Source: Nemertoderma westbladi | Taxonomy: Eukaryota; Animalia; Xenacoelomorpha | Direction of reading: 5' to 3' | DNA: 64,000 nucleotides | NCBI GenBank assembly: GCA_032718475.1 | Contig: JAUCBJ010000359.1 | Location: 23,004-87,003, forward strand | In this document: one piece after another, positions 40,342 through 64,000 of the stretch | Layout of the letters: each line of letters starts with the position of its first letter | How positions within the stretch are numbered: position 1 is the first letter of the stretch | Notes under the pieces: model-generated | What the model saw: the letters and a program-made list of their open reading frames with translations, nothing else | Told to the model about the DNA's origin: nothing | The model's database searches: none | Position numbers and translations under genes: made by a program

Positions 40342-40375
40342 TCGACCCTTTTGCTAACTCAGTAATCAGACAGTC

Positions 40376-41929: not shown

Positions 41930-41999
41930 TCTCCAGGCCGGATGTTGGTTAGTCACTCGAACTGCGTAATGAAACTGTGTTTCGAAATCTCTCTTAACA

Positions 42000-44900
42000 A
42001 TGGCTACTGCACTTTCTCATGGCACAAACTTGAATGTTAATAATAATACTGTATCAATTGTGTCATATAATTCGACCGGTATGGGAATTGATAAAGTAGA
42101 CTTCATTAATACATTATTGTTAGGCACGGATATTGTTTGTATTCAGGAACATTTTATTTTGAAAGACAATTGTTATAAATTTAGGTTGTTTTTCCCCGAT
42201 TGTGATTACGGCGTAGTCCCGGCGACTTTTTTGAGTGATGAAGTTTCTCGTGGTAGACCAAGCGGCGGTCTTTGTATCCTTTGGAAAAAATCGCTATCTA
42301 AATATATTTCTATAATCAATACTGGTAATAATATTAGATATCAGGCAGTTATTTTTAATTTTCCAAATAACAAGTTGCTGTTGATCAATTCATATTTTCC
42401 GGTAGATAATCAGAACAGCCCTACAGTTTCAGAGGAGTTGTTCACTTTGCTTAATAGTATCAAGGACACAGTAACTACGTCACAGTTTGATAATCTGTTA
42501 TGGGTGGGAGATTTAAATGCAGATTTAAATCGTAGTTCGATACATGTACGTACTGTAATTGATTACATAGAAACCCTTTCCATTTTTTGTTTATGGAACG
42601 TTTTCCCAATTGACTACACTTACTTGTCAATGTTCAACAATGTTATCCACCGTTCTACAATAGATCATTTTCTTGTTAGCCACAATTTATTAGATGCTTG
42701 TTTTGAGGCCAATGTTATTCATTCTGGTGCAAATATATCAAACCACAGCCCTATATATTTTAAATTTAAAGTTGATGCTTTAAATCCCAATATTATTTCT
42801 GAGCCTCCTCCAGTTAAATATTCTTATGATAAAGCAACTGATCAACAAAAGGCAAGTTATCATTCGTTACTGAATGATTTGCTGATAAATGTTTCTTTAG
42901 AGACTGATTGTCATAATTGCAATAATCTTTTATGTTCTAAACCTGAACATCGGTTGTTTATTGAAAAATACACAATGCAGCTATTGGAGGCTATTGAGAA
43001 TGCAGCTGAGATTTTGCCACATACTGGAGGCGTTATAAACCGCAAGCGATTTCAAATATTGCCCGGTTGGAACGAACATGTGAGAGATTTTAAAATAGAT
43101 GCTATGTTTTGGCATGATGTTTGGAGTGCTGCGGGGAAACCAACTGGTGCTAATAGTTATCTCTTTCATAAACGCCGTACTACTCGTGCCCAATATCAAT
43201 ATGCTATACGCAGGTTAAAAAAAGCACAGGGTATCATTAAACGTAATAAAATTTTGCAGGCCTGTTTAAGTGGTACTACTGGTATTTTTGATGAAATCAA
43301 AAAATTTAGAGGGAATGTGCGAGTGCAATCGAGTTCTATTAATGGTAAAACTGATTCGTCAGATATTGCGGATATTTTTGCTAATATTTATAATGTTTTA
43401 TATAATCAGGACATTTCTTGTGATGTGAAATTATCGGATGTTGAATCCAAGCTGGCTGACGAAATTAAAAAGATTAATAACACTAATGTGAATAATGTGA
43501 ACCAACCCAATGGTACTGGCCTTAGTGAACTTTTATCGCCCCGTATTATACATGAGGCTTTACTGCGATTAAAGAATAATAAATCAGACGTCAGTTACAG
43601 TTTTGATTCCGGTGCACTGATTAATGGCGGTGCTTTTCTTGAAAGTCACCTTGCCAAGTTATTTAATGCTTTCTTATCACATGGCTTTGTGTCTAAATGT
43701 TTGTTATCTATTTCTATGATACCAATTGTGAAAAATAAGTTGGGGGACATTTCTGCAGATACTAATTATAGGACTATTGCAATATCTGCGTTACTTTTGA
43801 AAGTTTTTGAGTGAGTAATGTTATTAGGGGAAGGTTCGAAATTAAAATTGGATGATCTCCAATTTGGTTTCCGTAGTGAATCTAGAGTACTGTGATGTGC
43901 ACTATGCACTATTGCTCTAGTGCACTAGTGCACTATTACTATGCCAGACATTCAACGCCAGTTTTTGGGTGCCTGTTGGATTTCACGAAGGCTTTTGACC
44001 TGATCCAATGGCCAATTCTATTTTTGGAGTTACTAAAAAAGGGATTTTCTGTGTTATATCTAAGGTGTTTGCTTTTCATTTACTGTAATCAAATTTGTGC
44101 GGTGAAATGGTTAAATAGCGATTCGTTTAAATTCTCAATCACTAACGGAGTACGTCAAGGTGCAGTATGCTCCCCTATTTTGTTTTGCATTGTTCTGAAT
44201 ATGCTGATTAGTTCATTACGTAAATCTCAGGTAGGTTGCTTTATTGGTAATTATTATTTTGGGGTATTAGCGTACGCAGACGATGTGTTTTTACTTTGTC
44301 CTTCAGTAGTAGGCCTTCAGTTTATGGTTAATCTGTGTAAAGAATTTTGCAGTAAGTATAATCTACGACTGAGTACTGATGTTAATGTGGAAAAGTGTAA
44401 ATGTAAATGTATCCCGTTTGGTTTCCGTTGGAATCCACCGGCATTTCGAATAGAAATTAATGATATTCAATTGCCTTGGGTTAAAGAGGCTACTCATCTA
44501 GGAATACTTATCGATTATAAGTGCCGTTTAACTGGTGATATTTTGCGAAAAAGGGGACAATTTATTGGTAAACTAAATAATATTAAGCAAGAATTTGGAT
44601 TTGCACATCCTAGTAATATTTTACAAATACAGAGATTATATGCAATGTCGTTTTATGGTAGTAATACCTGGAATTTGTGGTCTAATGAGTGCCGTAGATT
44701 ATTAACAAGTTGGAATATTAACGTTAGGATTACCTGTCGTCTACCATACAATTCTCATAGGTTCATAGTGCAGGAAATTCCGGGTTTTATGCACCCATGG
44801 GTGATTATTTGTAAAAATTTCGTAACTTTCAGCAATACTTTATTACACTCAAATAGGACGTGCATACGGTTTTTAGCTAAACTGTTGTTATCGGATTGCA

Positions 44901-45139
44901 GGTCAATAAGTGGTAGAAATTTACGTAATATTGCAACAGAGTGTGATACTTCAAACCTATCTATTTTAACGCCTGCATTAATTAGTACGAAACTTAAGTA
45001 TGTTCCTATTCCATCAGGTGAAGAATGGAAAGTAGATACATGTAAAGATTTAATTGATGCCTTAATCGGTTTTTCGGTGATTCCGGGTTTTGAGGGTGAA
45101 GAGATCCAAAGTTTACTAAACTATATTTCATCGTGCTAG
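42000..45139 (+). pseudogene. LINE A ORF2: apurinic-like endonuclease + reverse transcriptase, disrupted (nonsense codon at 43812-43814, frameshift at ~43884)
   Basis: APE motifs SYNSTG, CIQEH, GDLNAD, IDHF, SNH. RT motifs NYRTIA, QFGF, LDFTKAFD, GVRQG, YADD. ORFs 42000..43814 and 43892..45139 join into one. TGA stands where element C has Trp (KLFEWVM), and an extra AG in TCTAGAGTACT shifts the frame. Confidence 0.94.
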
Positions 45140-45355: not shown

Positions 45356-45376
45356 AATAAACAAATAAACAAATAA
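45356..45376 (+). repeat. LINE A 3' tandem tail (AAATAAAC)n
   Basis: AATAAAC AAATAAAC AAATAA is followed immediately by satellite GGCAAAATATTACT. Confidence 0.85.
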
Positions 45377-46917
45377 GGCAAAATATTACTAAAATAGAGA
45401 ACGCTACCTATAATGGGAAAATATTAGTAAAATAGAGAACACTATATAATGGCAAAATATTAGTAAAATAGAGAACGCTACCTATAATGGGAAAATATTA
45501 GTAAAATAGAGAACGCTACCTATAAGGCAAAATATTAGTAAAATAGAGAACGCTACCTATAATGGGAAAATATTAGTAAAATAGAGAACGCTACCTATAA
45601 GGCAAAATATTAGTAAAATAGAGAACGCTACCTATAATGGGAAAATATTAGTAAAATAGAGAACGCTACCTATAATGGCAAAATATTAGTAAAATAGAGA
45701 ACGCTACCTATAAGGCAAAATATTACTAAAATAGAACAGAAAATATAAAATATTTGTAAAATAGAGAACGCTACCTATAATGGGAAAATATTAGTAAAAT
45801 AGAGAACGCTACCTATAAGGCAAAATATTAGTAAAATAGAGAATGCTACCTATAATGGGAAAATATTAGTAAAATAGAGAACGCTACCTATAAGGCAAAA
45901 TATTAGTAAAATAGAGAACGCTACCTATAATGGGAAAATATTAGTAAAATAGAGAACACTATATAATGGCAAAATATTAGTAAAATAGAGAACGCTACCT
46001 ATAATGGGAAAATATTAGTAAAATAGAGAACGCTACCTATAATGGGAAAATATTAGTAAAATAGAGAACGCTACCTATAAGGCAAAATATTAGTAAAATA
46101 GAGAACGCTACCTAAAAGGGAAAATATTAGTAAAATAGAGAACGCTACCTGTAATGGCAAAATATTAGTAAAATAGAGAATGCTACCTATAATGGCAAAA
46201 TATTAGTAAAATAGAGAACGCTATATAATGGCAAAATATTAGTAAAATAGAGAACGCTACCTATAATGGGAAAATATTAGTAAAATAGAGAACGCTACCT
46301 ATAATGGCAAAATATTAGTAAAATAGAGAACGCTATATAATGGCAAAATATTAGTAAAATAGAGAACGCTACCTATAATGGGAAAATATTAGTAAAATAG
46401 AGAACGCTACCTATAAGGCAAAATATTACTAAAATAGAGAACGCTACCTATAATGGGAAAATATTAGTAAAATAGTGAACGCTACCTATAATGGGAAAAT
46501 ATTAGTAAAATAGTGAACGCTACCTATAATGGGAAAATATTAGTAAAATAGTGAACGCTACCTATAATGGGAAAATATTAGTAAAATAGTGAACGCTACC
46601 TGTAATGGCAAAATATTAGTAAAATAGAGAACACTACCTGTAATGGCAAAATATTAGTAAAATAGAGAACACTACCTATAATGGGAAAATATTAGTAAAA
46701 TAGAGAACGCTACCTATAAGGCAAAATATTACTAAAATAGAGAACGCTATATAATGGGAAAATATTAGTAAAATAGTGAACGCTACCTATAATGGGAAAA
46801 TATTAGTAAAATAGTGAACGCTACCTATAAGGCAAAATATTAGTAAAATAGAGAACGCTACCTGTAATGGCAAAATATTAGTAAAATGGAGAACGCTACC
46901 TGTAATTGCAAAATAAT
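45377..46917 (+). repeat. 38-bp satellite segment between LINE A and LINE B
   Basis: Same monomer and orientation as 1-40341. Confidence 0.98.
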
Positions 46918-46929
46918 AATAATAATAAT
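46912..46929 (-). repeat. LINE B 3' tail (ATT)6
   Basis: AATAATAATAATAATAAT on + strand merges with satellite variant GCAAAATAAT. AATAAA lies ~12 nt upstream on the minus strand. Confidence 0.85.
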
Positions 46930-47040
46930 ATAATACTTTCTTTTATTTCCATAACCCAAATATATATATATATATAAATGAGGCAGCACCGTAATGAATT
47001 ACTTTAGCTGATAATAGCTGGAAATAAGTGTCAAGTAGGG

Positions 47041-47063
47041 CTTGCAGGGGCTCGCCTGCCAAG
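47041..47063 (-). other. Candidate 3' UTR stem-loop of LINE B
   Basis: CTTGCAGG-ggctcg-CCTG(c)CAAG gives an 8-bp stem with one bulge, GC-rich in an AT-rich UTR, ~110 nt from the tail. L2/CR1-group LINEs use 3' stem-loops for RT recognition. Confidence 0.45.
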
Positions 47064-48755
47064 ACTACAGTGGAGTTGAACTAATACACAAAATTAGCTA
47101 ATTAATTAAGTAAACAGTTGCCGGTAATATATAATTATCATCACAGTCACCCAGACACAATAATTTCGTGACACATCCCGAGGCAGGATAGCGGCACGAA
47201 AATAAATGTCAACAAATAATGCATCCCTCATTGATCCTTACACACATAATTGGTTTTATGTTATGCCGTCGTATCGATGATATTGGCTGATAAATTTTTT
47301 TTTAATTGAATTGAGAAATGATTTGTAGTCCTTTTGTAGTTTAGTTGATTTATCTAAAGAGTTCCAGATTTTTATTAATGATACAATTATACTTGAGAAA
47401 CCATAATCATTATTTGTACTTGGTATTTTAATATTTCCTGTTCTAGAATTAATAATTTGATCGGCAGTAGTGTTTTTAATAGTTTTGTTATTAGTAGTAT
47501 AATGTGGGTTTCCCTGTATTCTAATGTTGTTTGTATGTAAAAGTGGTAGTTGTAATTGTTTGAAAGGGCGTGATAGTTTATTTACATATTTATAAAAAAA
47601 TTTTAAACCAGTGTACTCTCTAAGTGAGTATAGATTTGGTAATTTAGCTAAGGTGCGTAGCTGCGTGCCAGTCAGGTCACGTATTTTTTTACTGAAAACT
47701 ATGCGAAGGCCGTAATTTTGTTGTTTATCTAGGTTGTATAATAGTTCTTTATATCCATGTTTTTTATGTAGGGGCGCTAGTAAATTACTACAGTAATTGT
47801 GATGTGGTAAAACTGTTGCCTTAAATATATTTAATTTAGTTTTAACAGATAACTGGCCCTTGATTCTCCGCAAACAGGAGTTCGCCAGTCCCATTTTATT
47901 AGATATGGATTTAATTTGGCACTTCCAATTCAATTTATTATCTATATAGACGCCCAAATATTTTATATTTTCAGATTGGGGTATTATGGTATTTTTTGTT
48001 GTTAGTTTTATATCATCAGTTTCAGGGGAGCGACTGTGCGGGGATAATAGTAAGAATTCTGTCTTGTCCGTATTAAGGTTTAGGTGTAGGTTTGCAAAAG
48101 TAGTCTCTAGGTCATTTACTTGTTTTTCTAGTGTCGCCGTAGCTATTTTTGGATCAGTATGTGAAAAAAATATCAGAGTGTCATCAGCGTATTGCACAAG
48201 ATCAAGATCAAAGAAAGTTTTTAAATTATTTACATATAAAAGGAATAATAGTGGTCCTAACTGCGTTCCTTGAGGTACCCCCCTGTTTATAGTTTCCCAT
48301 TTTGAATAAGTCTCATTTATTTTAACACGTTGTGGCCTGTCCCTTAAGAAATTTTCTAGCAGTGTAATGGCGGTCCGATGTAATCCCAGGCATTTTAGTT
48401 TTTTAAGCAGAATCGCGTGGTTTAAAGAATTGAAAGCCTTAGAGAGATCCAAAGCAGCTACAGCCACAAATTTATTTTTATCTACTTGTGCTCTCCATGA
48501 CTCTGTGGTATAAATAATTGCATCAGATGTGGAATAGCCCTTTTGGAAACCAAATTGTTTTTTATTAATCAATTTATGCTTATTTATGTAGATGTATAAT
48601 TGGTTTCTTATTACTTTTTCAAAAATTTTCTCAAATGTCGATGTTACAGATATTGGGCGGTAATTTTCGGGGTCTAAAATGTCACCTTTTTTATATACAG
48701 GAGTTATATCACTTAGTTTCAGTTTCTGAGGGAAGACTGAAGTGGTTAGACATTT

Positions 48756-49592
48756 GTGGCTGGCCACGAGAAAAGGGACCTTATGTCACCGGAGGTCGAT
48801 TTTGAGTTATTAGGCCTATGAGATGCAGAATTTTCCAGAGATTTTAACAAAAAAAACTGTGTCTCAATATCTATTTCTAAAAAAAAGTTATAGCGATTTA
48901 TGTGAAGGTGAATCGGGTAGCAAAAAAATTTTTATTAATAGCGGTTATAATAAGCGATTATTAAAAAAAATGGAAAATATTAATAATATCAAAGCAATTC
49001 TTACTATATAGTTAGGCAGCTCAGTGTTATTCGGCTTTTTATACAACTTTTAACACTTTGAAACTATTAATATTGTTCATGAACTATTTTAAAAAAAATT
49101 TTGCAAAATTTTCAAAAAAACATGTAACCAAAAAAATTTTTTTTTAATTTAAAATTTTTTCAAAAAGATAAATTTTTTTAACAAAATTTAAAATTATTTG
49201 TATTTTGAATTCTTTATTGGGATTACAAAATTTAAGAACTAACGAAGATAAATTAAGAAAATGACAGCCATATTGCATTTAAAAAATAACTGTAGGCCTA
49301 CAGTACCTACATATTACAGTAGTACAAATACAATTTATTAGTCCTAAATTCAGACATGAAAACCCTAAGACAGTGTTATATACAACACTGCAACATCTTA
49401 TATAGCTTCCTGTAATTAGTTATTTCCTAGGTATATTGAATATCAGAACCAATTTGAATTTCCCTCATCGTTTTATACATTTCTAAATTGATAATCCAAT
49501 TAAATTTGTTCAAAAATAGAGGGAAACTTTAAACGCGATTATCTCAGAATCAGGTTTTGCGACATAAGGTCCCTTTTCTCGTGGCCAGCCAC
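48756..49592. mobile_element. 837-bp non-autonomous DNA transposon (MITE), Sola1-like
   Basis: Perfect 32-bp TIRs GTGGCTGGCCACGAGAAAAGGGACCTTATGTC (48756-48787 and reverse complement 49561-49592). ATTT is duplicated at 48752-48755 and 49593-49596. Very AT-rich non-coding interior. A 4-bp AWWT duplication with short TIRs fits Sola1, but the superfamily call is less certain than the element. Confidence 0.9.
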
Positions 49593-51185
49593 ATTTATTG
49601 ATAATAAGTGTTAATGGAGTAACTATTTGGTATCTAACAAGCTTAATAATTTTAGGTGGCATACTGGATGGACCATTTGGTTTATTTATATTTATTTTGC
49701 TTAGGATATCAAATACTTCCATGTCACTAACGTTGAAAAATGCAAATTCAGGCCTTAACTGCATCTGCGATTCTTCATTGTAAGAAGTGGTATTATTAGA
49801 CCAATCCTTATTGTAGTGATGGGAAGTATTTGATGTTTTGAGTCCTAGGTTTAAAAATACCCTATTGAAAATCTTAGCGATACTGGATTTAGTGTTGTAA
49901 ATAATATTGTCCATATCCCTTAAGCGATTAATTTTGGTTTGTGCCTTTTTTTTATTTAGAATAGAATTAATTATATTCCACCGCAGTTTTGGATCCTTCG
50001 CAGTGCCAAATTTATCCCGCATGTGCTGGTTTTTCATATACTTATTTAGATTATTATATTTGTTACGTGCACTTTTGAAGGCTTTATAATAAAAATCCTG
50101 TTTTGTGGATCGCCATTGTTGTAGTTTGTTCATTTTTTCTTTACGTAGTTCTTCAAGCTCCTTCGTCCACCATGGAGTATTGATCGGCGGTTTTTTGTTC
50201 TCGACAATCAATATTCTCCTGAATGGCGCATGGATATCAAGAACGGCCTCCATTTTCGCTTCCAAATAGTCATAGCAAAAATTTACGTCCGGACTGTGAT
50301 ACAATGGCGACCAATCAATTTTGTTAATGTCCTCAATGAATTTTGATTCCGAAAATTGTTTGAAGTTTCTAATAGTTTTCCAACTTTTTTCATTATTTTG
50401 GTTGTCCAATTTGTAATTTATATTTGTATTTAATATTACAGTTTTGTGATCAGAAAAATCGCAAAATATAGTAGATGTGTTAATTATTGGTAGATTGTTA
50501 TCTGAGGTGATAATGAGGTCAAGTAAGGAGTTTTTGTTTTTCCAAAACGAGTCGGTTCGCTGCTATTAATTAATTTCAGGTCGTATTTAGAAAGCATTTC
50601 ATGGAGATCCCTTGTTTTAATGTTATTTTTATCAAGAATATCGATATTAAAGTCACCTCCCATTATAATCTCGGTCGATGGATTGTTAATAGCATTCTCG
50701 ATTTCCTCACTGAAATCTGTTATGAAATTCTTTGAGTTGGGTGGGTTATAAGTAACATTTATAAGAAATCGATTATCTACTTCAACCCAAAGCGAGTCGT
50801 ACGGTACCTTCTTATTTTTTATTTTGATGTCAGGACGTATTTTTTGAGACATGTTGTCTGGTATATACAATAATACCCCACCTCCTCGTTTCCTCCTGCG
50901 ATCGCGATCGCATCGATGAACGTTGAATCCCGGCAGAGCAATGGAGCGGTTCGAGTGTCTTTGTTTCAGCCAAGATTCTGTGATACCTATTATTATATTG
51001 CTTGAAATACCAGACAAGATATCCTTTAGTTCGTCATAATTTTTTACTAAGCTACGGGTATTTAAGATCATATATTTCAGATTGTTTTGATTTATAATTA
51101 AGTGTTCTCGAATATTATCAGTATTTTTACTACTCCTCCTACGTTCTGACTGTTTATTTAATTTAATATTTATTTTTTTTAGGAT

Positions 51186-51212
51186 TGGTCCTGGGTTTAG
51201 GTGTATATCTCC
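51186..51212 (-). other. 2A-like (StopGo) motif GDIHLNPGP in LINE B ORF2
   Basis: QLIHRCGDIHLNPGP matches D(V/I)ExNPGP except E->H. It lies just upstream of the APE domain, where 2A-like peptides are known in APE-type non-LTR elements. Confidence 0.8.
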
Positions 51213-52322
51213 ACATCTATGAATTAGCTGAGAGATTATTAAAGCATGTATTATAGATATTTGTATAAGGATAGGAGTTAACAGTGCAATTATGTCTATA
51301 ATTATATTTGCTTTGGAAGTTAATTTAGAAGTGTTATTTATAGAGCATATTATTGAGTTATTGTTAGTGGTAGTTTTATTTTTATTTGGTGATTTATGAG
51401 ATACGAGACCTGGCTGCCACCAGCTACACGCGCTAATGTATATTATTATTATTGTATTTAAACTACGTCTAATTGAAGTACTGGTGGGACATAGATGAGT
51501 AAGTATTCTTATTGTTAGTGATGTTAAAATGAAGTTTGATATTAGTATTGCTATTGGTAGAGTTGTAGTCAGTATGGAGGTAATAGATTTGTCAGTAAGC
51601 TTACGTTGAGTATAAAGAGATATATTGACTAGTAGTCCTAGTATTATATTACATATTACGAGTGTCGATACCATTAAATTATATTTTAATTTGTATTTTT
51701 TGGATTTATATTTGATATACCGTAATGCACCCGTTATCAATGAATTAAGATACGACATAGTAGATATGCATACTTTTGAGAAAATTTTTCGACGAATTAA
51801 ATTGCAAATGATAGTAAATATAAATTTGGTTGAGATATATGTAAATATATATATCAACTTTAATAAGGAGGAGGGATGTATCATTCCACTACCTATAATA
51901 ACAACCAACAATCGTAACAATGTGTAACCATTACAACAATGATGTATAATTTGTAGTTTTACTTTATGTGACGTATTAAAAACGGCAGGTTTGATGTATA
52001 ATTTGAGCCCCCGCTTCGCAAGTTTTACGAATGTTAATATTAAAAAAGAAAATAGGAGGCGCTGATTGAACATTAGTATAAGACAGCAGAAATCACAAAA
52101 TATAGTCATACCAGAGAATTTCTCAAAGCGACCATTGCAGTAAAATAGAGTATCGCAGTAAAATATACTAAGTATAATCATTATACTATAAAAAATGGTA
52201 AAATTTATCATTAAATAACAAGTGAACATTATAAAATGGTCATTCTGGATATTATTTAGAGATACAGTCGATCTGGATAAAATGTTAAAAATACGTTTGA
52301 TATATTTATTTACGATTTATCA

Positions 52323-52957
52323 TTAAAAATATTGCTCAGTCAGCGGTGTGCTGCTGGCTGTAATTGCTCTAATTAAGGCTATCGCAGAATCGACTATTGG
52401 GTTACTGTCATTACGATTCATTCCGCGATTCCCGTATTGATTGATCGCATCCAACGGAGTTGGCCGCTGCAACTGCCGAGATGTTGCCGTGTTGAATTGT
52501 TGTAGCTGCGGGTTTCTGTACATCGGCTGGTTATGTGGGATTTGCCGTCCCATGGATGGAGGAAAACTCCAGGCCGATTGTATTGGAAATTGGCGGCTTG
52601 GGAGAGACGGGAACTCTAGCGAGTTGTTCATTAGATGAGCTGGTTGTGGGTTACCGGTATTCGAGCGAATGAATGGTTGCCGGATCGTTCTGACGGTTTG
52701 ATCTTTGTTTGTTAGCTTTGTTCCGTGTAGCTGCGATTTAATGTTCCTTGCTAAGATACCTACATACTTTGCCGCGATATGCTTGGAATCGACTAAGTGA
52801 GATTGTGTTATATTATCCTGAGGAACGAGAATCACGCCATTAATATTAGCACATAGAGTTTGTAGTGCCTTGTTAATCGGTTCCACTTTGACATCGGATC
52901 TAACGATGAGCTCGGATACGTAAAAACGACAATTTGGCCACCGTTTACGCAGGTAAA
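52323..52957 (-). pseudogene. LINE B ORF1, 5'-truncated: C-terminal half of SGNH/GDSL esterase-like domain plus Q/P/N-rich tail
   Basis: Frame stays open upstream of the track's GTG start to the junction: YLRKRWPNCRFYVSELIVRSDVKVEPINKALQTLC...QDNITQSHLVDSKHIAAKYVGILARNIK. DxxH followed by a helix fits SGNH block V, and esterase ORF1s are established in CR1/L2-group LINEs. Confidence 0.72.
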
Positions 52958-52961
52958 AAAA

Positions 52962-55900
52962 AAAATATTAGTAAAATAGAGAACGCTACCTATAATGGGA
53001 AAATATTAGTAAAATAGTGAATGCTACCTATAAGGCAAAATATTAGTAAAATAGTGAACGCTACCTATAATGGGAAAATATTAGTAAAATAGTGAACGCT
53101 ACCTATAAGGCAAAATATTAGTAAAATAGAGAACGCTACCTGTAATGGCAAAATATTAGTAAAATAGAGAACGCTACCTATAATGGCAAAATAATAGTAA
53201 AAAAGAACAGAAAATATAAAATATTTGTAAAATAGAGAACGCTACCTGTAATGGCAAAATATTAGTAAAATAGAGAACACTACCTATAATGGGAAAATAT
53301 TAGTAAAATAGAGAACGCTACCTGTAATGGCAAAATATTAGTAAAATAGAGAATGCTACCTATAATGGGAAAATATTAGTAAAATAGAGAACGCTACCTG
53401 TAATGGCAAAATATTAGTAAAATAGAGAACGCTACCTGTAATGGCAAAATATTAGTAAAATAGAGAACGCTACCTGTAATGGCAAAATATTAGTAAAATA
53501 GAGAACGCTACCTATAATGGCAAAATATTAGTAAAATAGAAAATGCTACCTGTAATGGCAAAATATTAGTAAAATAGAGAACGCTACCTATAATGGGAAA
53601 ATATTAGTAAAATAGAGAACGATACCTATAAGCCAAAATATTAGAAAAATAGAGAACGCTACCTATAATGGGAAAATATTAGTAAAATAGAGAACGATAC
53701 CTATAAGCCAAAATATTAGAAAAATAGAGAACGCTACCTATAATGGGAAAATATTAGTAAAATAGAGAATGCTACCTATAAGGCAAAATATTAGTAAAAT
53801 AGAGAACGCTACCTATAAGGCAAAATATTAGTAAAATAGAGAACGCTACCTATAATGGGAAAATATTAGTAAAATAGAGAACGATACCTATAAGCCAAAA
53901 TATTAGTAAAATAGAGAACGCTACCTATAATGGCAAAATATTAGTAAAATAGAGAACGCTACCTATAAGGCAAAATATTAGTAAAATAGAGAACGCTACC
54001 TGTAATGGCAAAATATTAGTAAAATAGAGAACGCTACCTAAAATGGCAAAATATTAGTAAAATAGAGAACGCTACCTGTAATGGGAAAATATTAGTAAAA
54101 TAGAGAACGCTACCTATAAAGGCAAAATATTAGTAAAATAGAGAAAGCTACCTATAATGGCAAAATATTAGTAAAATAGAGAACGCTACCTATAATGGGA
54201 AAATATTAGTAAAATAGAGAACGCTACCTATAATGGGAAAATATTAGTAAAATAGAGAATGCTACCTATAATGGGAAAATATTAGTAAAATAGAGAAAGC
54301 TACCTATAATGGGAAAATATTAGTAAAATAGAGAACGCTACCTATAATGGGAAAATATTAGTAAAATAGAGAACGCTACCTATAATGGCAAAATATTAGT
54401 AAAATAGAGAACGCTACCTGTAATGGCAAAATATTAGTAAAATAGAGAACGCTACCTATAAGGCAAAATATTAGTAAAATAGAGAACGCTACCTATAATG
54501 GGAAAATATTAGTAAAATAGAGAACGCTACCTATAATGGGAAAATATTAGTAAAATAGAGAACACTACATATAAGGCAAAATATTACTAAAATAGAGAAC
54601 GCTACCTATAATGGGAAAATATTAGTAAAATAGTGAACGCTACCTATAATGGGAAAATATTAGTAAAATAGTGAACGCTACCTGTAATGGCAAAATATTA
54701 GTAAAATAGAGAACGCTACCTATAATGGCAAAATATTAGTAAAATAGAGAACGCTACCTGTAATGGCAAAATATTAGTAAAATAGAGAACGCTACCTATA
54801 ATGGGAAAATATTAGTAAAATAGAGAACGCTACCTATAAGGCAAAATATTACTAAAATAGAGAACGCTACCTATAATGGGAAAATATTAGTAAAATAGTG
54901 AACGCTACCTATAATGGGAAAATGTTAGTAAAATAGTGAACGCTACCTGTAATGGCAAAATATTAGTAAAATAGAGAACGCTACCTGTAATGGCAAAATA
55001 TTAGTAAAATAGAGAACGCTACCTAGAATGGGAAAATATTAGTAAAATAGTGAACGCTACCTATAATGGCAAAATATTAGTAAAATAGAGAACGCTACCT
55101 ATAATGGCAAAATATTAGTAAAATAGAGAACGCTACCTGTAATGGCAAAATATTAGTAAAATAGAGAACGCTACCTATAATGGGAAAATATTAGTAAAAT
55201 AGAGAACACTACCTATAAGGCAAAATATTACTAAAATAGAGAACGCTACCTATAATGGGAAAATATTAGTAAAATAGTGAACGCTACCTATAATGGTGAA
55301 ATATTAGTAAAATAGAGAACGCTACCTATAATGGGAAAATATTAGTAAAATAGAGAACGCTACCTGTAATGGCAAAATATTAGTAAAATAGAGAATGCTA
55401 CCTATAATGGCAAAATATTAGTAAAATAGAGAACGCTACCTATAAGGCAAAATATTAGTAAAATAGAGAACGCTACCTGTAATGGCAAAATAATAGTAAA
55501 ATAGAGAACGCTACCTATAATGGCAAAATATTAGTAAAATAGAGAACGCTACCTGTAATGGCCAAATATTAGTAAAATAGAGAACGCTACCTGTAATGGC
55601 CAAATATTAGTAAAATAGAGAACGCTACCTGTAATGGGAAAATATTAGTAAAATAGAGAACGCTACCTGTAATGGCAAAATATTAGTAAAATAGAGAACG
55701 CTATATAATGGTGAAATATTAGTAAAATAGAGAACGCTACCTATAATGGGAAAATATTAGTAAAATAGAGAACGCTACCTGTAATGGCAAAATATTAGTA
55801 AAATAGAGAATGCTACCTATAATGGCAAAATATTAGTAAAATAGAGAACGCTACCTGTAATGGCCAAATATTAGTAAAATAGAGAACGCTACCTATAAAT

Positions 55901-58900
55901 GGCAAAATATTAGTAAAATAGAGAACGCTACCTATAATGGCAAAATATTAGTAAAATAGAGAACGCTACCTATAATGGCAAAATATTAGTAAAATAGAGA
56001 ACGCTACCTATAATGGGAAAATATTAGTAAAATAGAGAATGCTACCTGTAATGGCAAAATATTAGTAAAATAGAGAACGCTACCTATAATGGCAAAATAT
56101 TAGTAAAATAGAGAACGCTACCTGTAATGGCCAAATATTAGTAAAATAGAGAACGCTACCTGTAATGGCCAAATATTAGTAAAATAGAGAACGCTACCTG
56201 TAATGGGAAAATATTAGTAAAATAGAGAACGCTACCTGTAATGGCAAAATATTAGTAAAATAGAGAACGCTATATAATGGTGAAATATTAGTAAAATAGA
56301 GAACGCTACCTATAATGGGAAAATATTAGTAAAATAGAGAACGCTACCTGTAATGGCAAAATATTAGTAAAATAGAGAATGCTACCTATAATGGCAAAAT
56401 ATTAGTAAAATAGAGAACGCTACCTGTAATGGCAAAATATTAGTAAAATAGAGAACGCTACCTATAAGGCAAAATATTAGTAAAATAGAGAACGCTACCT
56501 ATAATGGGAAAATATTAGTAAAATAGAGAACGCTACCTATAATGGGAAAATATTAGTAAAATAGAGAACACTACATATAAGGCAAAATATTACTAAAATA
56601 GAGAACGCTACCTATAATGGGAAAATATTAGTAAAATAGTGAACGCTACCTATAATGGGAAAATATTAGTAAAATAGTGAACGCTACCTGTAATGGCAAA
56701 ATATTAGTAAAATAGAGAACGCTACCTATAATGGCAAAATATTAGTAAAATAGAGAACGCTACCTGTAATGGCAAAATATTAGTAAAATAGAGAACGCTA
56801 CCTATAATGGGAAAATATTATTAAAATAGAGAACGCTACCTATAAGGCAAAATATTACTAAAATAGAGAACGCTACCTATAATGGGAAAATATTAGTAAA
56901 ATAGAGAACACTATATAATGGCAAAATATTAGTAAAATAGAGAACGCTACCTATAATGGGAAAATATTAGTAAAATAGAGAACACTATATAATGGCAAAA
57001 TATTAGTAAAATAGAGAATGCTACCTATAATGGCAAAATATTAGTAAAATAGAGAACGCTACCTATAAGGCAAAATATTAGTAAAATAGAGAACGCTACC
57101 TATAATGGGAAAATATTAGTAAAATAGAGAACGCTACCTATAAGGCAAAATATTAGTAAAATAGAGAACGCTACCTATAATGGGAAAATATTAGTAAATA
57201 GAGAACGCTACCTATAATGGCAAAATATTAGTAAAATAGAGAACGCTACCTATAAGGCAAAATATTACTAAAATAGAACAGAAAACATAAAATATTTGTA
57301 AAATAGAGAACGCTACCTATAATGGGAAAATATTAGTAAAATAGAGAACGCTACCTACCTATAAGGCAAAATATTAGTAAAATAGAGAACGCTACCTATA
57401 ATGGGAAAATATTAGTAAAATAGAGAATGCTACCTATAAGGCAAAATATTAGTAAAATAGAGAACGCTACCTATAATGGGAAAATATTAGTAAAATAGAG
57501 AACACTATATAATGGCAAAATATTAGTAAAATAGAGAACGCTACCTATAAGGGGAAAATATTAGTAAAATAGAGAACGCTACCTATAATGGGAAAATATT
57601 AGTAAAATAGAGAACGCTACCTATAAGGCAAAACATTAGTAAAATAGAGAACGCTACCTAAAAGGGAAAATATTAGTAAAATAGAGAACGCTACCTGTAA
57701 TGGCAAAATATTAGTAAAATAGAGAATGCTACCTATAATGGCAAAATATTAGTAAAATAGAGAACGCTATATAATGGCAAAATATTAGTAAAATAGAGAA
57801 CGCTACCTATAATGGGAAAATATTAGTAAAATAGAGAATGCTACCTATAATGGCAAAATATTAGTAAAATAGAGAACGCTATATAATGGCAAAATATTAG
57901 TAAAATAGAGAACGCTACCTATAATGGGAAAATATTAGTAAAATAGAGAACGCTACCTATAAGGCAAAATATTACTAAAATAGAGAACGCTACCTATAAT
58001 GGGAAAATATTAGTAAAATAGTGAACGCTACCTATAATGGGAAAATATTAGTAAAATAGTGAACGCTACCTATAATGGGAAAATATTAGTAAAATAGTGA
58101 ACGCTTCCTATAATGGGAAAATATTAGTAAAATAGTGAACGCTACCTGTAATGGCAAAATATTAGTAAAATAGAGAACACTACCTGTAATGGCAAAATAT
58201 TAGTAAAATAGAGAACGCTACCTATAATGGGAAAATATTAGTAAAATAGAGAACGCTACCTATAAGGCAAAATATTACTAAAATAGAGAACGCTATATAA
58301 TGGGAAAATATTAGTAAAATAGAGAATGCTACCTATAATGGGAAAATATTAGTAAAATAGAGAACGCTACCTATAAGGCAAAATATTACTAAAATAGAGA
58401 ACGCTACCTATAATGGGAAAATATTAGTAAAATAGTGAACGCTACCTATAATGGGAAAATATTATTAAAATAGTGAACGCTACCTGTAATGGCAAAATAT
58501 TAGTAAAATAGAGAACGCTACCTATAATGGGAAAATACTAGTAAAATAGAGAACGCTACCTATAAGGCAAAATATTACTAAAATAGAGAACGCTATATAA
58601 TGGGAAAATATTAGTAAAATAGTGAACGCAACCTATAATGGCAAAATATTAGTAAAATAGAGAACGCTACCTATAAGGCAAAATATTATTAAAATAGTGA
58701 ACGCTACCTGTAATGGCCAAATATTAGTAAAATAGAGAACGCTACCTATAATGGCAAAATATTAGTAAAATAGAGAACGCTACCTATAAGGCAAAATATT
58801 AGTAAAATAGAGAACGCTACCTGTAATGGCAAAATATTAGTAAAATAGAGAACGCTACCTATAATGGGAAAATATTAGTAAAATAGAGAACGCTACCTAT

Positions 58901-60778
58901 AAGGCAAAATATTACTAAAATAGAGAACGCTATATAATGGGAAAATATTAGTAAAATAGTGAACGCTACCTATAATGGGAAAATATTAGTAAAATAGTGA
59001 ACGCTACCTATAAGGCAAAATATTAGTAAAATAGAGAACGCTACCTGTAATGGCAAAATATTAGTAAAATAGAGAACGCTACCTATAATGGCAAAATAAT
59101 AGTAAAAAAGAACAGAAAATATAAAATATTTGTAAAATAGAGAACGCTACCTGTAATGGCAAAATATTAGTAAAATAGAGAACGCTACCTATAATGGGAA
59201 AATATTAGTAAAATAGAGAACGCTACCTGTAATGGCAAAATATTAGTAAAATAGAGAATGCTACCTATAATGGGAAAATATTAGTAAAATAGAGAACGCT
59301 ACCTGTAATGGCAAAATATTAGTAAAATAGAGAACGCTACCTGTAATGGCAAAATATTAGTAAAATAGAGAACGCTACCTGTAATGGCAAAATATTAGTA
59401 AAATAGAGAACGCTACCTATAATGGCAAAATATTAGTAAAATAGAAAATGCTACCTGTAATGGCAAAATATTAGTAAAATAGAGAACGCTACCTATAATG
59501 GGAAAATATTAGTAAAATAGAGAACGATACCTATAAGCCAAAATATTAGAAAAATAGAGAACGCTACCTATAATGGGAAAATATTAGTAAAATAGAGAAT
59601 GCTACCTATAAGGCAAAATATTAGTAAAATAGAGAACGCTACCTATAAGGCAAAATATTAGTAAAATAGAGAACGCTACCTATAATGGGAAAATATTAGT
59701 AAAATAGTGAACGCTACCTATAATGGGAAAATATTAGTAAAATAGTGAACGCTACCTGTAATGGCAAAATATTAGTAAAATAGAGAACGCTACCTATAAT
59801 GGCAAAATATTAGTAAAATAGAGAACGCTACCTGTAATGGCAAAATATTAGTAAAATAGAGAACGCTACCTATAATGGGAAAATATTAGTAAAATAGAGA
59901 ACGCTACCTATAAGGCAAAATATTACTAAAATAGAGAACGCTACCTATAATGGGAAAATATTAGTAAAATAGAGAACGCTACCTATAATGGGAAAATATT
60001 AGTAAAATAGAGAACGCTACCTGTAATGGCAAAATATTAGTAAAATAGAGAATGCTACCTATAATGGCAAAATATTAGTAAAATAGAGAACGCTACCTGT
60101 AATGGCAAAATATTAGTAAAATAGAGAACGCTACCTATAAGGCAAAATATTACTAAAATAGAGAACGCTACCTATAATGGGAAAATATTAGTAAAATAGT
60201 GAACGCTACCTATAATGGGAAAATATTAGTAAAATAGTGAACGCTACCTGTAATGGCAAAATATTAGTAAAATAGAGAACGCTACCTATAATGGCAAAAT
60301 ATTAGTAAAATAGAGAACGCTACCTGTAATGGCAAAATATTAGTAAAATAGAGAACGCTACCTATAATGGGAAAATATTAGTAAAATAGAGAACGCTACC
60401 TATAAGGCAAAATATTACTAAAATAGAGAACGCTACCTATAATGGGAAAATATTAGTAAAATAGAGAACACTACCTATAATGGGAAAATATTAGTAAAAT
60501 AGTGAACGCTACCTATAATGGCAAAATATTAGTAAAATAGAGAACACTATATAATGGCAAAATATTAGTAAAATAGAGAACGCTACCTATAATGGCAAAA
60601 TATTAGTAAAATAGAGAACGCTACCTATAATGGGAAAATATTAGTAAAATAGAGAACACTATATAATGGCAAAATATTAGTAAAATAGAGAATGCTACCT
60701 ATAATGGCAAAATATTAGTAAAATAGAGAACGCTACCTATAAGGCAAAATATTAGTAAAATAGAGAACGCTACCTATA
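52962..60778 (+). repeat. 38-bp satellite segment between LINE B and LINE C
   Basis: Same monomer with local variants (GATACCTATAAGCC, GGCCAAAT, GGTGAAAT, ACACTACATA). Confidence 0.98.
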
Positions 60779-62305
60779 TGTTAAACCTTTCCGTGACGAG
60801 TCTATCTTTTGGCATAGTGTCTGGGTGTCTGCTGGGTGTCCGAATGTTTCTCAAAATGCACATCTATTTCATATGCGTAGAGTTACAAGGGCTCAGTTTA
60901 AATATGCTGTGCGACGGTTGAAACGCGCTTCTGATAACATTCAGCGAGACAAATTACTGCAAGCCTGTTTGAGAAACAATCAACAGATATTCGAGGAGAT
61001 TAAGAAGCTGCGTCGGGTGTCGCCTGTAGTTAGTTCTAGAATAGATGACTGTGTTGACTCACAGTCAATAGCTGATCGCTTTGCTTCAATTTACTCCACA
61101 TTGTTTAATCAACCTTATAACTCAAATTTGGAAGGTTTACGGCAGCAGATTCATGAGAAATTGGACAGTTGTGATAGGGATGCATTGCGGCTTATAACTT
61201 CAGAGCTAGTTTGGGAGGCTATGAATAAGCTTAAAAGTTCTAAGTCAGATGTAGCCTTTGGATTTGATTCGGACTGCTTAATCAATGCGGGCCCGGAATT
61301 TAGAGAGCAATTAGTTAGGTTATTTAACTTGTTTCTTGTTCATGGTTTTGTACCTCAATTTCTTCTGACTTGCGTTATATTACCTTTAATTAAAGATAAG
61401 CTGGGTGATCAAGCCGTCTCTAGTAACTACCGTGCAATAGCTTTGTCATCATTGTTAATCAAACTATTTGAATGGGTAATGTTGCTGTCACAATCTGAAT
61501 GCCTTTCATTGGATGAGCTGCAGTTCGGTTTTCAGTCTGGTACGGGGACAAGCCAGTGCTCGTGGGTGGCCTCAGAGGTGATTGGTCATTACTCCAGGTA
61601 CAATACACCAGTATATGGGAGTCTACTTGACCTCACAAAGGCATTCGATATGGTCGAGTGGTGTAAACTATTCTTGGAACTGATCAAAAAGGGTTTCTCT
61701 CCGTTATTCCTACGTACCCTACTGTGGATATATTCCAATCAATCCTGTTGTGTCCGTTGGAATGAAACTTTATCGTCTCCTTTCGGTATTTCTAATGGTG
61801 TAAAACAGGGATCTGTGGCCTCGCCAATTCTGTTTTGCATTCTTCTCAACTCGCTCCTTGTGCGTCTGCGAGAGGCAGGTGTAGGATGCTGGATAGGCAC
61901 ATATTTCTTGGGTGCACTAGCATACGCGGATTATATTTTCTTGTTGTGCCCATCTCTGTGCGGCCTTCACTTTATGGTTTCATTATGCGAAAGATTTGCA
62001 CAAGATAATGATTTAGTTTTCAGTACAAATGTAACTCCAGAGAAGTCTAAATCGAAATGTATTGCATTTAGCAACTCGACGCGTTGGAGGGAACCTGCTG
62101 CCAGAATACATTTAAATGGTCACGATTTGCCATGGGTTCGTGAGGCAGTTCATTTGGGGCATGTTTTTGATTTTCGCAATAGTATGGTGTCTGATGTACT
62201 GAAAAAACGCGGCCAATTAATAGGTAAATTAAATGCACTAAGACAAGAGTTTTATTTTTCTGATCCTTATTTATTGTGCGATATCCAGCGGATTTACGCA
62301 ACTTG
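60779..62305 (+). mobile_element. LINE C: internal ORF2 fragment of an RTEX-like element related to but diverged from LINE A; both ends missing
   Basis: Starts at VKPFRDESIFWHSVWVSAGCP (cf. A: VRDFKIDAMFWHDVWSAAGKP) and ends at DIQRIYATC, abutting satellite. No 3' UTR or tail. Confidence 0.92.
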
Positions 62306-62309
62306 TTAG
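60780..62309 (+). pseudogene. Partial reverse transcriptase of LINE C with catalytic YADD changed to YADY
   Basis: Motifs NYRAIA, QFGF, LDLTKAFD, GVKQG, AYADYIF. Stop codon TAG is supplied by the satellite junction. No true start codon and no endonuclease. Confidence 0.9.
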
Positions 62310-63605
62310 TAAAATAGAGAACGCTACCTATAATGGGAAAATATTAGTAAAATAGAGAACGCTACCTATAAGGCAAAATATTACTAAAATAGAGAACGCT
62401 ACCTATAATGGGAAAATATTAGTAAAATAGTGAACGCTACCTATAATGGGAAAATACTAGTAAAATAGAGAACGCTACCTATAAGGCAAAATATTACTAA
62501 AATAGAGAACGCTATATAATGGGAAAATATTAGTAAAATAGTGAACGCTACCTATAATGGGAAAATATTAGTAAAATAGAGAATGCTACCTATAATGGGA
62601 AAATATTAGTAAAATAGAGAAAGCTACCTATAATGGAAAAATATTAGTAAAATAGAGAACGCTACCTATAATGGGAAAATATTAGTAAAATAGAGAACGC
62701 TACCTATAATGGCAAAATATTAGTAAAATAGAGAACGCTACCTGTAATGGCAAAATATTAGTAAAATAGAGAACGCTACCTATAAGGCAAAATATTAGTA
62801 AAATAGAGAACGCTACCTATAATGGGAAAATATTAGTAAAATAGAGAACGCTACCTATAATGGGAAAATATTAGTAAAATAGAGAACACTACATATAAGG
62901 CAAAATATTACTAAAATAGAGAACGCTACCTATAATGGGAAAATATTAGTAAAATAGTGAACGCTACCTATAATGGGAAAATATTAGTAAAATAGTGAAC
63001 GCTACCTATAATGGCAAAATATTAGTAAAATAGAGAACGCTACCTATAATGGCAAAATATTAGTAAAATAGAGAACGCTACCTGTAATGGCAAAATATTA
63101 GTAAAATAGAGAACGCTACCTATAATGGGAAAATATTAGTAAAATAGAGAACGCTACCTATAAGGCAAAATATTACTAAAATAGAGAACGCTACCTATAA
63201 TGGGAAAATATTAGTAAAATAGTGAACGCTACCTATAATGGGAAAATGTTAGTAAAATAGAGAACGCTACCTATAATGGCAAAATATTAGTAAAATAGAG
63301 AACGCTACCTGTAATGGCAAAATATTAGTAAAATAGAGAACGCTACCTAGAATGGGAAAATATTAGTAAAATAGTGAACGCTACCTATAATGGCAAAATA
63401 TTAGTAAAATAGAGAACGCTACCTATAATGGCAAAATATTAGTAAAATAGAGAACGCTACCTGTAATGGCAAAATATTAGTAAAATAGAGAACGCTACCT
63501 ATAATGGGAAAATATTAGTAAAATAGAGAACGCTACCTATAAGGCAAAATATTACTAAAATAGAGAACGCTACCTATAATAGGAAAATATTAGTAAAATA
63601 GTGAA
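62306..63605 (+). repeat. 38-bp satellite segment
   Basis: Same monomer, + orientation. Confidence 0.98.
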
Positions 63606-64000
63606 TATTTACTAATATTTTCCCATTATAGGTAGCGTTCACTATTTTACTAATATTTTCCCATTATAGGTAGCGTTCTCTATTTTAGTAATATTTTGCC
63701 TTATATGTAGTGTTCTCTATTTTACTAATATTTTCCCATTATAGGTAGCGTTCTCTATTTTACTAATATTTTCCCATTATAGGTAGCGTTCACTATTTTA
63801 CTAATATTTTCCCATTCTAGGTAGCGTTCTCTATTTTACTAATATTTTGCCATTACAGGTAGCGTTCTCTATTTTACTAATATTTTGCCATTATAGGTAG
63901 CGTTCTCTATTTTACTAATATTTTCCCATTATAGGTAGCGTTCTCTATTTTACTAATATTTTCCCATTATAGGTAGCTTTCTCTATTTTACTAATATTTT
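63606..64000 (-). repeat. 38-bp satellite in inverted orientation
   Basis: TATTTTACTAATATTTTCCCATTATAGGTAGCGTTCTC is the reverse complement of the monomer and runs to the window end. Confidence 0.98.

What the first reader, a model, noticed from the sequence alone, without database searches (positions are those of the whole stretch)
51186..52229. LINE ORF2 carrying a ~340-aa multi-pass-membrane-like leader separated from APE-RT by a 2A-like motif
Seen: 339 stop-free codons in very AT-rich DNA precede GDIHLNPGP, in frame with the endonuclease. They contain roughly 6-8 hydrophobic stretches (e.g. INFTIFYSIMIILSIFYC, LMVSTLVICNIILGLLVNISLY, ILTTTLPIAILISNFILTSL, IIIDIIALLTPILIQISIIHALII) separated by basic loops (RYIKYKSKKYKLK, HKSPNKNK). 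Known: 2A-like StopGo peptides occur upstream of APE in CR1/L2-group LINEs, but I know of no characterised polytopic membrane protein in that position. Inference: the element may make a separate membrane protein by ribosomal skipping, or a membrane-tethered APE-RT on read-through. That would imply membrane-associated assembly or cell-to-cell transfer.
Basis: partly seen in the sequence, partly recalled or inferred. Interest (0 to 1): 0.8.

Follow-up and report, generated by a model that had tools for sequence, protein, structure and literature searches.

The report
Giant membrane-like leader on LINE enzyme
A young jumping gene (a LINE) begins its copying enzyme with a 339-residue greasy leader, about twice as long as that of any relative we found, ending in a ribosome-skipping-type motif; the leader likely parks the ribosome on internal membranes and rations how much free enzyme is released, which is untested.

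Summary
Observation confirmed (minus strand). A 5'-truncated CR1-group LINE sits in a 38-bp satellite. ORF2 opens with 339 stop-free codons (chance about 1e-11), then GDIHLNPG|P, then APE. High-depth contigs of 3 of 4 runs laid keep the leader open (3 substitutions, one in-frame deletion) and lack this copy's frameshift and nested insertion. Five clear and two weak hydrophobic segments exist, not 6-8. Only residues 186-339 beat a base-composition null (p about 0.001); residues 1-185 do not (p about 0.2). The leader has no homolog, family or fold match. A short hydrophobic, acid-poor leader before a 2A-like motif is a lineage trait: 11 of the 15 nearest RT hits, 23 of 120 listed, 20-166 aa. Here it is 348 aa and follows an ORF1. 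The E-to-H motif is a doubtful skipper: 6 of 21 published H-variants skip. Best reading (0.45): ER docking plus partial StopGo that rations free APE-RT, with an N-terminal extension taken from T-rich spacer. Nothing supports cell-to-cell transfer. The scan noted shorter such leaders on other genomes before. New variant of a known kind; interest 0.5.

The parts
46912..52952 (-). 5'-truncated CR1-group LINE copy inserted in a 38-bp satellite array
   Evidence: Satellite arrays end near 46927 and resume near 52962; contigs of X1, X2 and X3 run on unlike the window beyond 52952 (tables 7, 8); AATAAA and (ATT)n tail at the 3' end
52323..52952 (-). 3' part of ORF1 (about 209 codons): about 70 residues that may be the end of an SGNH/GDSL-type domain (DxxH present), then a P/Q/N-rich tail
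   Evidence: Open frame. No Pfam or PDB match. ESM Atlas: unnamed clusters 0.92-0.94, GDSL clusters 0.86-0.87, a lead only. No BLASTP match to the GDSL-bearing ORF1 of L056
52230..52325 (-). ORF1/ORF2 junction: three in-frame stops, then 29 open codons; two mini-frames (MINRK*, MTIL*); both the first ORF1 stop and the ORF2 ATG lie in TAATG overlaps
   Evidence: Sequence and three-frame translation; TAATG is common in AT-rich DNA, so little weight
51213..52229 (-). 339-codon hydrophobic leader of ORF2; Met at 1, 7, 17, 41, 53, 116, 158, 186 and none after; 5 acidic residues
   Evidence: open in high-depth contigs of X1, X2, X3
51675..52229 (-). Residues 1-185: likely lineage-specific extension; segments 5-23 and 47-65 clear, 108-126 and 127-145 weak
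   Evidence: P(open) 6e-7; segments p 0.24, GRAVY p 0.20, DENQ depletion p 0.008 against the composition null
51213..51674 (-). Residues 186-339: Met-started part like the relatives' leaders in size and make-up; segments 185-203, 226-244, 309-327
   Evidence: P(open) 2e-5; segments p 0.001, GRAVY p 0.0007; relatives' leaders 20-166 aa
51186..51212 (-). 2A-like motif GDIHLNPG|P, H in place of the conserved E
   Evidence: Sequence; same position in 23 of 120 listed RT relatives
50430..51080 (-). APE endonuclease domain (limits approximate), broken in this copy by a 1-base frameshift near 50530
   Evidence: Pfam PF03372/PF14529; contigs of X1, X2, X3 carry one more base there (table 4)
48750..49590 (.). 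Nested non-coding element with 31-bp terminal inverted repeats and an 8-bp target duplication (7 of 8 alike), hAT-MITE-like (label recalled), interrupting ORF2
   Evidence: contigs of X1, X2, X3 join 48749 to 49591 without it, and depth over it is far higher than over the LINE (tables 2, 5)
47256..48749 (-). Reverse transcriptase and C-terminal part of ORF2
   Evidence: Pfam PF00078 E 3e-34
46912..47255 (-). 3' UTR with AATAAA (about 46947-46942) and (ATT)n tail (about 46934-46912)

Best explanation
This LINE's ORF2 begins with a 339-residue hydrophobic leader and a 2A-like motif, and the leader likely docks the translating ribosome and the element's RNA on the endoplasmic reticulum, where the motif would stall the ribosome and release only part of the endonuclease-reverse transcriptase as free enzyme. 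Shown: open frame, conservation in sister copies, hydrophobic acid-poor make-up, the same layout in shorter form across relatives. Inferred steps: (1) ribosomes finishing ORF1 re-initiate at the first AUG, 88 nt on; (2) the first hydrophobic segments engage SRP and insert; (3) at the 2A-like helix a minority of ribosomes skip the Gly-Pro bond, giving free Pro-APE-RT that binds its own RNA and does target-primed reverse transcription; (4) the rest give a membrane-tethered fusion (enzyme predicted on the cytosolic side: 9 K/R against 2 D/E in residues 338-368, counted by hand) or a stalled product that is degraded, which limits enzyme dose; (5) residues 186-348 are the inherited leader, and residues 1-185 are a recent extension from T-rich spacer DNA kept open because the start moved upstream.
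For: Frame open against odds of about 1e-11 and in both halves separately; still open in high-depth contigs of 3 of 4 runs laid, which also lack the frameshift and nested element. No Met between 186 and the APE start, so ORF2 cannot start just before the motif. 23 of 120 listed RT relatives, 11 of the top 15, have NPGP before APE; 18 of these 23 have at least one hydrophobic segment in the leader, 12 have one upstream of the 2A helix, 5 have three or more, against 2 of 97 motif-less proteins in their first 120 aa. Pooled relatives' leaders: GRAVY 0.85, 3.3% D/E; window 0.72, 1.5%. In 8 close pairs the leader is 26-41% identical (77% in the closest pair) where APE is 62-73% and RT 67-75% (88% and 91%), so character is kept while sequence drifts. 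PMC4981915 shows N-terminal 2A-like peptides acting as signal sequence and recoder at once (passages). PMC13405545 reports reduced protein abundance for 59% of ORF2p 2A-like peptides tested (passage). An exact DIHLNPGP core skipped in a Leu-rich context, and E14H was the one tolerated change at D12/E14/N16 in P2A (10.64898/2026.09.24.754024).
Against: No expression, translation or localisation data. Residue shuffles give as many segments (p 0.16); residues 1-185 do not beat the composition null; on a recalled insertion scale, summed without position terms, only 2 of 7 segments are favourable alone. The E-to-H Crack-15_BF peptide had very low activity (PMC3708506); only 6 of 21 D[IV]HxNPGP peptides skip and 8 of 21 do nothing, and 1 of 5 with RCGD[IV]H skips; the window's peptide has only two Leu in positions -19 to -10, where reduction-type peptides have 3-6. 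The window's leader shows no sequence similarity to any relative's leader (best E 0.05 among 22), so the homology of residues 186-348 to them rests on position and make-up only. All three leader differences from the contigs change the residue; dN/dS could not be measured. Motif-less hits may be gene calls that start late, which inflates the contrast.
Confidence: 0.45

Rival explanations
1. Passive spacer: the leader is kept open only because ORF2 must be entered right after ORF1. Its greasiness is mostly a by-product of T-rich DNA, and only the last 30 residues (the 2A helix) matter.
For: Residues 1-185 match the composition null; segments no more clustered than residue shuffles; no homolog, no Pfam family, no Atlas hit with recognition 1074, below the level of known families, no fold match; leaders drift fast and vary 20-348 aa. 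T-rich DNA yields TM-prone frames (PMC7005711, title and abstract start only).
Against: Residues 186-339 exceed the null at p about 0.001; residues 1-300, without the 2A helix, still exceed it (p 0.01-0.02; D+E p 0.004). 12 of 23 relatives have a segment upstream of the 2A helix. A 339-codon passive spacer is costly when a Met lies at the APE start.
Confidence: 0.27
2. One reading: efficient StopGo releases a stable 347-residue multi-pass membrane protein that, with a lipid-binding ORF1, helps pack the RNP into vesicles or pass it between cells.
For: Size and five clear segments; frame maintained; esterase ORF1s bind liposomes and vesicle transfer has been speculated (PMC3905857, passages); an env-less LTR clade (mdg1) evolved cell-to-cell transfer (PMC13269885, passage); L056 also pairs a GDSL-type ORF1 with a hydrophobic leader.
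Against: Non-canonical motif with mixed activity record; no conserved fold or family; ORF2-level translation would give few molecules (inference from LINE biology); the esterase call for this ORF1 is only a lead.
Confidence: 0.12
3. No skipping: the active form is the whole 1374-residue fusion, tethered to ER or nuclear envelope with APE-RT facing cytosol or nucleoplasm, which would bias assembly or insertion to the nuclear periphery.
For: Continuous family frame of 1375 codons by arithmetic on contig differences; 8 of 21 H-variants neither skip nor reduce; basic stretch after the last helix; insertion in satellite.
Against: Two unrelated LINE copies without NPGP in their listed frames sit in the same satellite, so the site says nothing specific; the NPGP core is kept across relatives, which a pure linker would not need.
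Confidence: 0.11
4. ORF2 really starts at Met186 (or at the APE Met387), and the upstream open frame is chance.
For: Met186 gives a 163-residue leader, at the top of the relatives' range, and begins a strong hydrophobic segment.
Against: P(open) for codons 1-185 is 6e-7; seven AUGs lie upstream in frame.
Confidence: 0.05

Closest known systems
[quoted passage not shown] 2013, PMC3708506; Luke et al., PMC3894237)
   Same: 2A-like motif in the N-terminal region of ORF2p directly before APE; non-canonical residue at the E position as in Crack-15_BF (E to H).
   Different: There the 2A lies about 40-80 aa from the ORF2 start and most elements lack ORF1; here it ends at residue 348 and an ORF1 precedes it. 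Neither paper contains 'membrane' or 'hydrophobic'.
N-terminal 2A-like signal sequences of sea-urchin NLR proteins (Roulston et al. 2016, PMC4981915)
   Same: Hydrophobic stretch plus 2A motif giving two fates: uncleaved product to the secretory path, downstream product in the cytosol.
   Different: About 26 aa, host immune genes; here 348 aa with several segments, in a LINE.
Eukaryotic 'reduction-class' 2A-like peptides (Snell and Matreyek 2026 preprint, PMC13405545)
   Same: Hydrophobic helix before an NPGP core in LINE ORF2p; proposed to throttle expression.
   Different: Only 20-mers tested; the window's peptide is Ile-rich with two Leu; upstream leaders not treated in the passages read.
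Esterase-type ORF1p LINEs such as ZfL2-1 (Schneider et al. 2013, PMC3905857)
   Same: CR1-group LINE; ORF1 here may end in an SGNH-type domain; membrane link proposed.
   Different: Membrane binding there is peripheral and by ORF1p; esterase identity here is not established.
Unnamed CR1-group ORF2 proteins P0005-P0017 and P0022/23/25/28/34
   Same: Hydrophobic, acid-poor leader, NPGP, APE, RT; P0025 has 5 segments in 166 aa.
   Different: Leaders at most 166 aa from the called start (173 stop-to-motif in locus L056); no sequence similarity to the window's leader; RT only 32-40% identical.

Membership tests
APE-type non-LTR retrotransposon (LINE) | APE endonuclease upstream of an RT in ORF2 | tested here: met
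   Pfam PF03372/PF14529 (below curated cut-off) and PF00078 E 3e-34
APE-type non-LTR retrotransposon (LINE) | No LTR; 5' truncation; simple-repeat or A-rich 3' tail | tested here: met
   ORF1 cut at 52952 while contigs run on; (ATT)n tail; self-BLAST of 46901-53100 listed only satellite matches among the 60 shown
CR1 group (CR1/L2/Crack/Daphne), exact clade | RT phylogeny with named reference elements | tested here: inconclusive
   Tree of 70 RTs puts it among 2A-bearing unnamed lineages on a long branch with weak support (0.74); no Repbase references were available; the group label rests on recalled motifs and the tail type
2A-bearing LINEs (Odon et al. 2013) | 2A-like motif in the ORF2p N-terminal region before APE | tested here: met
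   GDIHLNPGP directly before APE
2A-bearing LINEs (Odon et al. 2013) | Motif about 40-80 aa from the ORF2 start | tested here: not met
   Ends at residue 348 from the first AUG, 163 from the last upstream AUG
2A-bearing LINEs (Odon et al. 2013) | ORF1 usually absent (majority trait with named exceptions) | tested here: not met
   ORF1 3' part present
Class A 2A/StopGo peptide | Canonical D(V/I)ExNPGP core | tested here: not met
   DIHLNPGP, H for E
Class A 2A/StopGo peptide | Hydrophobic helix upstream in register | tested here: met
   KD 2.5 at 309-327; with D as position 12's numbering, positions 6, 7 and 11 are L, I and G
Class A 2A/StopGo peptide | Measured peptide-bond skipping | not testable with these tools
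   Published H-variants: 6 of 21 skip
Polytopic membrane protein | Several segments hydrophobic enough to span a membrane, beyond composition | tested here: inconclusive
   Beats base-composition null (p 0.006) but not residue shuffles (p 0.16); N-terminal half not significant; single-sequence model all-helical but pLDDT 52, pTM 0.33
Viral envelope or fusogen proteins | Sequence or fold likeness to Env, class I-III or FAST-type fusogens | tested here: inconclusive
   No match at E<=0.001 in PDB or BFVD, but the model is low-confidence; no Pfam hit
SGNH-esterase ORF1p LINEs | SGNH/GDSL domain in ORF1 | tested here: inconclusive
   Only the 3' part is in the window; Pfam, PDB and pairwise negative; Atlas GDSL leads 0.86-0.87

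The most novel reading that the evidence does not exclude
A LINE has grown its pre-2A leader into a true multi-pass membrane protein that StopGo releases as a third gene product, and with a lipid-binding ORF1 it builds RNPs on membranes and ships them in vesicles between cells: an envelope-like function in a non-LTR element, born partly de novo from spacer DNA.
Probability: 0.1. Interest if true: 0.88.

Novelty: new variant of a known kind. Interest (0 to 1): 0.5.

Why it matters
2A-like motifs in LINEs have been known since 2006-2013, but what the peptide upstream of them does is open. The leader is hydrophobic and acid-poor across the lineage, which the 2A papers checked here do not mention, and this family is the extreme case: 348 residues, with an ORF1 in place. 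That makes it a good test object. A leader this long can be tagged, localised, truncated at Met186 and swapped, which separates ER docking and dose control from a passive spacer. If the released product were a stable membrane protein used for transfer, LINEs would have an envelope-like function they are thought to lack.

Tried and rejected
No genome is held for this window, so individual copies and dN/dS could not be obtained. No RNA holder listed; no evidence on expression either way. Leader searches were blank: 0 of 3326 candidates of 607-2000 aa (other lengths not searched with that tool), 0 of 1.84 billion representatives, no Atlas hit, no Pfam family, no look-alike among scan findings. 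A profile search meant to find ORF2s over about 1200 aa with long leaders covered only 1954-5000 aa and gave 2 uninformative proteins, so long-leader ORF2s of 1250-1950 aa were not surveyed on purpose; 'longest leader' holds only for the 120 listed of 2475 hits and for 80 loci from 1 of 64 parts of the metagenome collection. Single-sequence AlphaFold2 failed even on APE (pLDDT 42) and gave pLDDT 52 for the leader; fold searches on it gave nothing at E<=0.001; VIA-align not run. No internal duplication in the leader. Hydropathy correlation at substituted sites in relatives' leaders (0.15-0.45) was not used, since the code and the alignment give such values without selection. X5 covers only 51719-51806 of the leader; holes prove nothing. 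Contig depth was not used as copy number. The branch at 51806 was considered as an alternative leader and set aside: its 30 loose bases read open in frame in X1/X2 but end in a stop in X5 (read by hand), which fits a 5'-truncated copy's flank. An artefact or opposite-strand shadow frame was rejected: no long frame on the + strand covers the leader except a 103-codon one.

Full report
Setting. The window is mostly a 38-bp satellite interrupted by three LINE insertions. The finding lies in the middle one, on the minus strand, about 46912-52952. From its 5' end: the 3' part of ORF1, three in-frame stops, ORF2 with leader, 2A-like motif, APE, linker and RT, a 3' UTR and an (ATT)n tail. This copy is dead: a 1-base frameshift near 50530 and an 841-base element with terminal inverted repeats at 48750-49590 break ORF2. 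No whole genome was held.

From the ATG at 52229, 339 codons precede GDIHLNPGP, in frame with APE. At this base composition a stop is expected every 14 codons; the chance of an open frame is about 8e-12, and the other five frames hold 13-49 stops. Both halves are separately improbable (6e-7 for codons 1-185, 2e-5 for 186-339). There is no Met between residue 186 and the APE start (Met387, counted by hand), so ORF2 cannot begin just before the motif.

Sister copies. Three public DNA runs, from two studies, hold 85% of the sampled words; one of them may be the window's own source. Four runs were laid. High-depth contigs of X1, X2 and X3 cover the whole leader and differ from the window at three bases and by one in-frame 3-base deletion (leader tables shown in full); the changes are T3S, L123I and S256N, none a stop. 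The same contigs have the base missing at 50530 and join across the nested element, which by arithmetic gives one frame of 1375 codons. Depth rises from the 5' to the 3' part in all three runs and contigs branch at 51806 (X1, X2, X5) and 51402 (X3), as 5'-truncated copies would cause; depth is not a copy number, contigs drop rare variants, and no contig spans the element. About 0.3-0.6% difference marks a young family; this is too little for dN/dS.

Is it a membrane protein? Kyte-Doolittle 19-mers give five clear segments (5-23, 47-65, 185-203, 226-244, 309-327) and two weak ones (108-126, 127-145); APE and RT give none. Against stop-free random frames of the same base composition the leader has more segments (6 vs 1.8, p 0.006), higher GRAVY (p 0.004) and fewer acids (5 vs 14, p 0.005). 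Against residue shuffles it does not (p 0.16). Split at Met186, the C-terminal part is clearly above the null (p about 0.001) and the N-terminal part is not (p 0.20-0.24), though it is poor in D/E/N/Q (p 0.008). These p-values are uncorrected, and the null is conservative because hydrophobic codons themselves raise T content. The leader has no homolog, family or Atlas hit. The single-sequence model is all-helical and low in confidence and matches nothing.

Relatives. An RT search gave 2475 hits of 871-2485 aa; 120 were listed. 23 of these 120, and 11 of the top 15, carry NPGP before APE, 20-166 residues from the called start (median 87). 18 of 23 have at least one hydrophobic segment, 10 two or more, 5 three or more, and 12 have one upstream of the 2A helix; 2 of 97 motif-less proteins have one in their first 120 residues, though some of those may be late gene calls. 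Their pooled leaders have GRAVY 0.85 and 3.3% D/E, like the window's 0.72 and 1.5%. In eight close pairs the leader is 26-41% identical (77% in the closest) where APE is 62-73% and RT 67-75%; two distant pairs of the ten compared were uninformative. None resembles the window's leader in sequence (best E 0.05). In 80 metagenome loci, 9 carry such a motif, 23-173 codons from the upstream stop, one of them cut by the contig end; L056 has an AlkB plus GDSL-type ORF1 just before a 173-codon hydrophobic leader with a degenerate motif. An RT tree of 70 rows (the window, 23 motif-bearing hits, 45 of 97 motif-less hits, one outgroup from the window) places the element among motif-bearing lineages with weak support. 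So the layout is a lineage trait, and this family has about twice the longest leader seen in this limited sample.

Does the motif skip? The conserved E is H. Odon et al. (PMC3708506; parts 1-3 of 6 read) found very low activity for an E-to-H Crack peptide and place LINE 2As about 40-80 aa from the ORF2 start, mostly in elements without ORF1. In supplementary file 3 of PMC13405545, 29 rows contain DIH or DVH; I dropped 8 that are not D[IV]HxNPGP. Of the 21 left, 6 skip, 8 neither skip nor reduce, 3 reduce without skipping and 4 fall off; 9 show reduced protein. The one exact DIHLNPGP peptide skipped and reduced; 1 of 5 RCGD[IV]H peptides skipped. A 2026 mutational scan found E14H the only tolerated change at D12/E14/N16, in P2A and not F2A (10.64898/2026.09.24.754024; passages and section 31; its supplements were not available and may hold closer peptides). 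PMC12338488 lists DIHLNPGP peptides from metagenomes without activity data in the rows seen (passages and supplement rows). Skipping here is open, likely partial.

Mechanism. I commit at 0.45 to ER docking plus partial StopGo that rations free APE-RT, with residues 1-185 a recent extension from T-rich spacer. Re-initiation after ORF1 is inferred from SART1 and LINE-1 (PMC5972666, passages); the TAATG overlaps at the junction fit but are common in such DNA. Dual fate of signal-plus-2A products is shown for sea-urchin NLRs (PMC4981915, passages). The ER-docking and rationing wording was sharpened by earlier scan notes, which are unchecked and not independent evidence. A passive spacer (0.27) is the main rival. 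A released membrane protein for vesicle or cell-to-cell transfer (0.12) has only analogies behind it (PMC3905857 and PMC13269885, passages), and the esterase call for this ORF1 is a lead only. A tethered active fusion (0.11) and a start at Met186 (0.05) are the rest.

What is in print. Full-text searches returned no paper on a multi-segment hydrophobic leader before a LINE 2A; PMC3708506 and PMC3894237 (part 1 of 3 read) contain none of 'membrane', 'hydrophobic' or 'signal sequence'. The library lacks most subscription papers, and Repbase and Dfam could not be searched. The scan itself noted leaders of about 100-151 residues on other genomes.

Verdict. A real, maintained, unusually long hydrophobic leader on a 2A-bearing CR1-group LINE: a new variant of a known kind, function untested. 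Interest 0.5.

Noticed in passing
window 40358-45139 (+): A second, unrelated LINE in the satellite: 523-codon ORF1, APE frame of 613 codons and RT frame of 417 codons, with a break near 43814-43886; no NPGP motif in these frames.
   Followed up: partly
window 60759-62309 (+): 5'-truncated LINE fragment with RT, similar in type to the element at 40358-45139; used as tree outgroup.
   Followed up: partly
window 48750-49590: Abundant non-coding element with 31-bp terminal inverted repeats and an 8-bp target duplication, nested in the LINE; summed contig depth up to about 40 times that of the LINE.
   Followed up: partly
window 1-40342, 45373-46927, 52962-60778, 62306-64000: 38-bp satellite of about 1380 copies; it flips orientation at about 63606.
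   Followed up: no
window 49843-51098: Contigs of a diverged sister subfamily (about 88-90% alike) cover APE and linker but stop matching at 51098, just short of the 2A motif, with 109 unlike bases beyond: its leader may be far more diverged.
   Followed up: no
window 51806: Contigs of X1, X2 and X5 leave the element here for another sequence; likely the flank of a 5'-truncated copy, but an alternative 5' module is not excluded.
   Followed up: partly
L056:780-2824 (+): LINE with ORF1 bearing an AlkB-type 2OG-Fe(II) oxygenase (PF13532 E 5e-18) and a GDSL-type domain (PF13472 E 3e-6, below cut-off), followed by a hydrophobic leader ending in ILNPGP without the Asp.
   Followed up: partly
P0022, P0023, P0025, P0028, P0034: A family of LINE ORF2s with three to five hydrophobic segments before a variant motif SG[IV]ExNPGP that lacks the Asp; good material for dN/dS if their DNA can be had.
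   Followed up: partly
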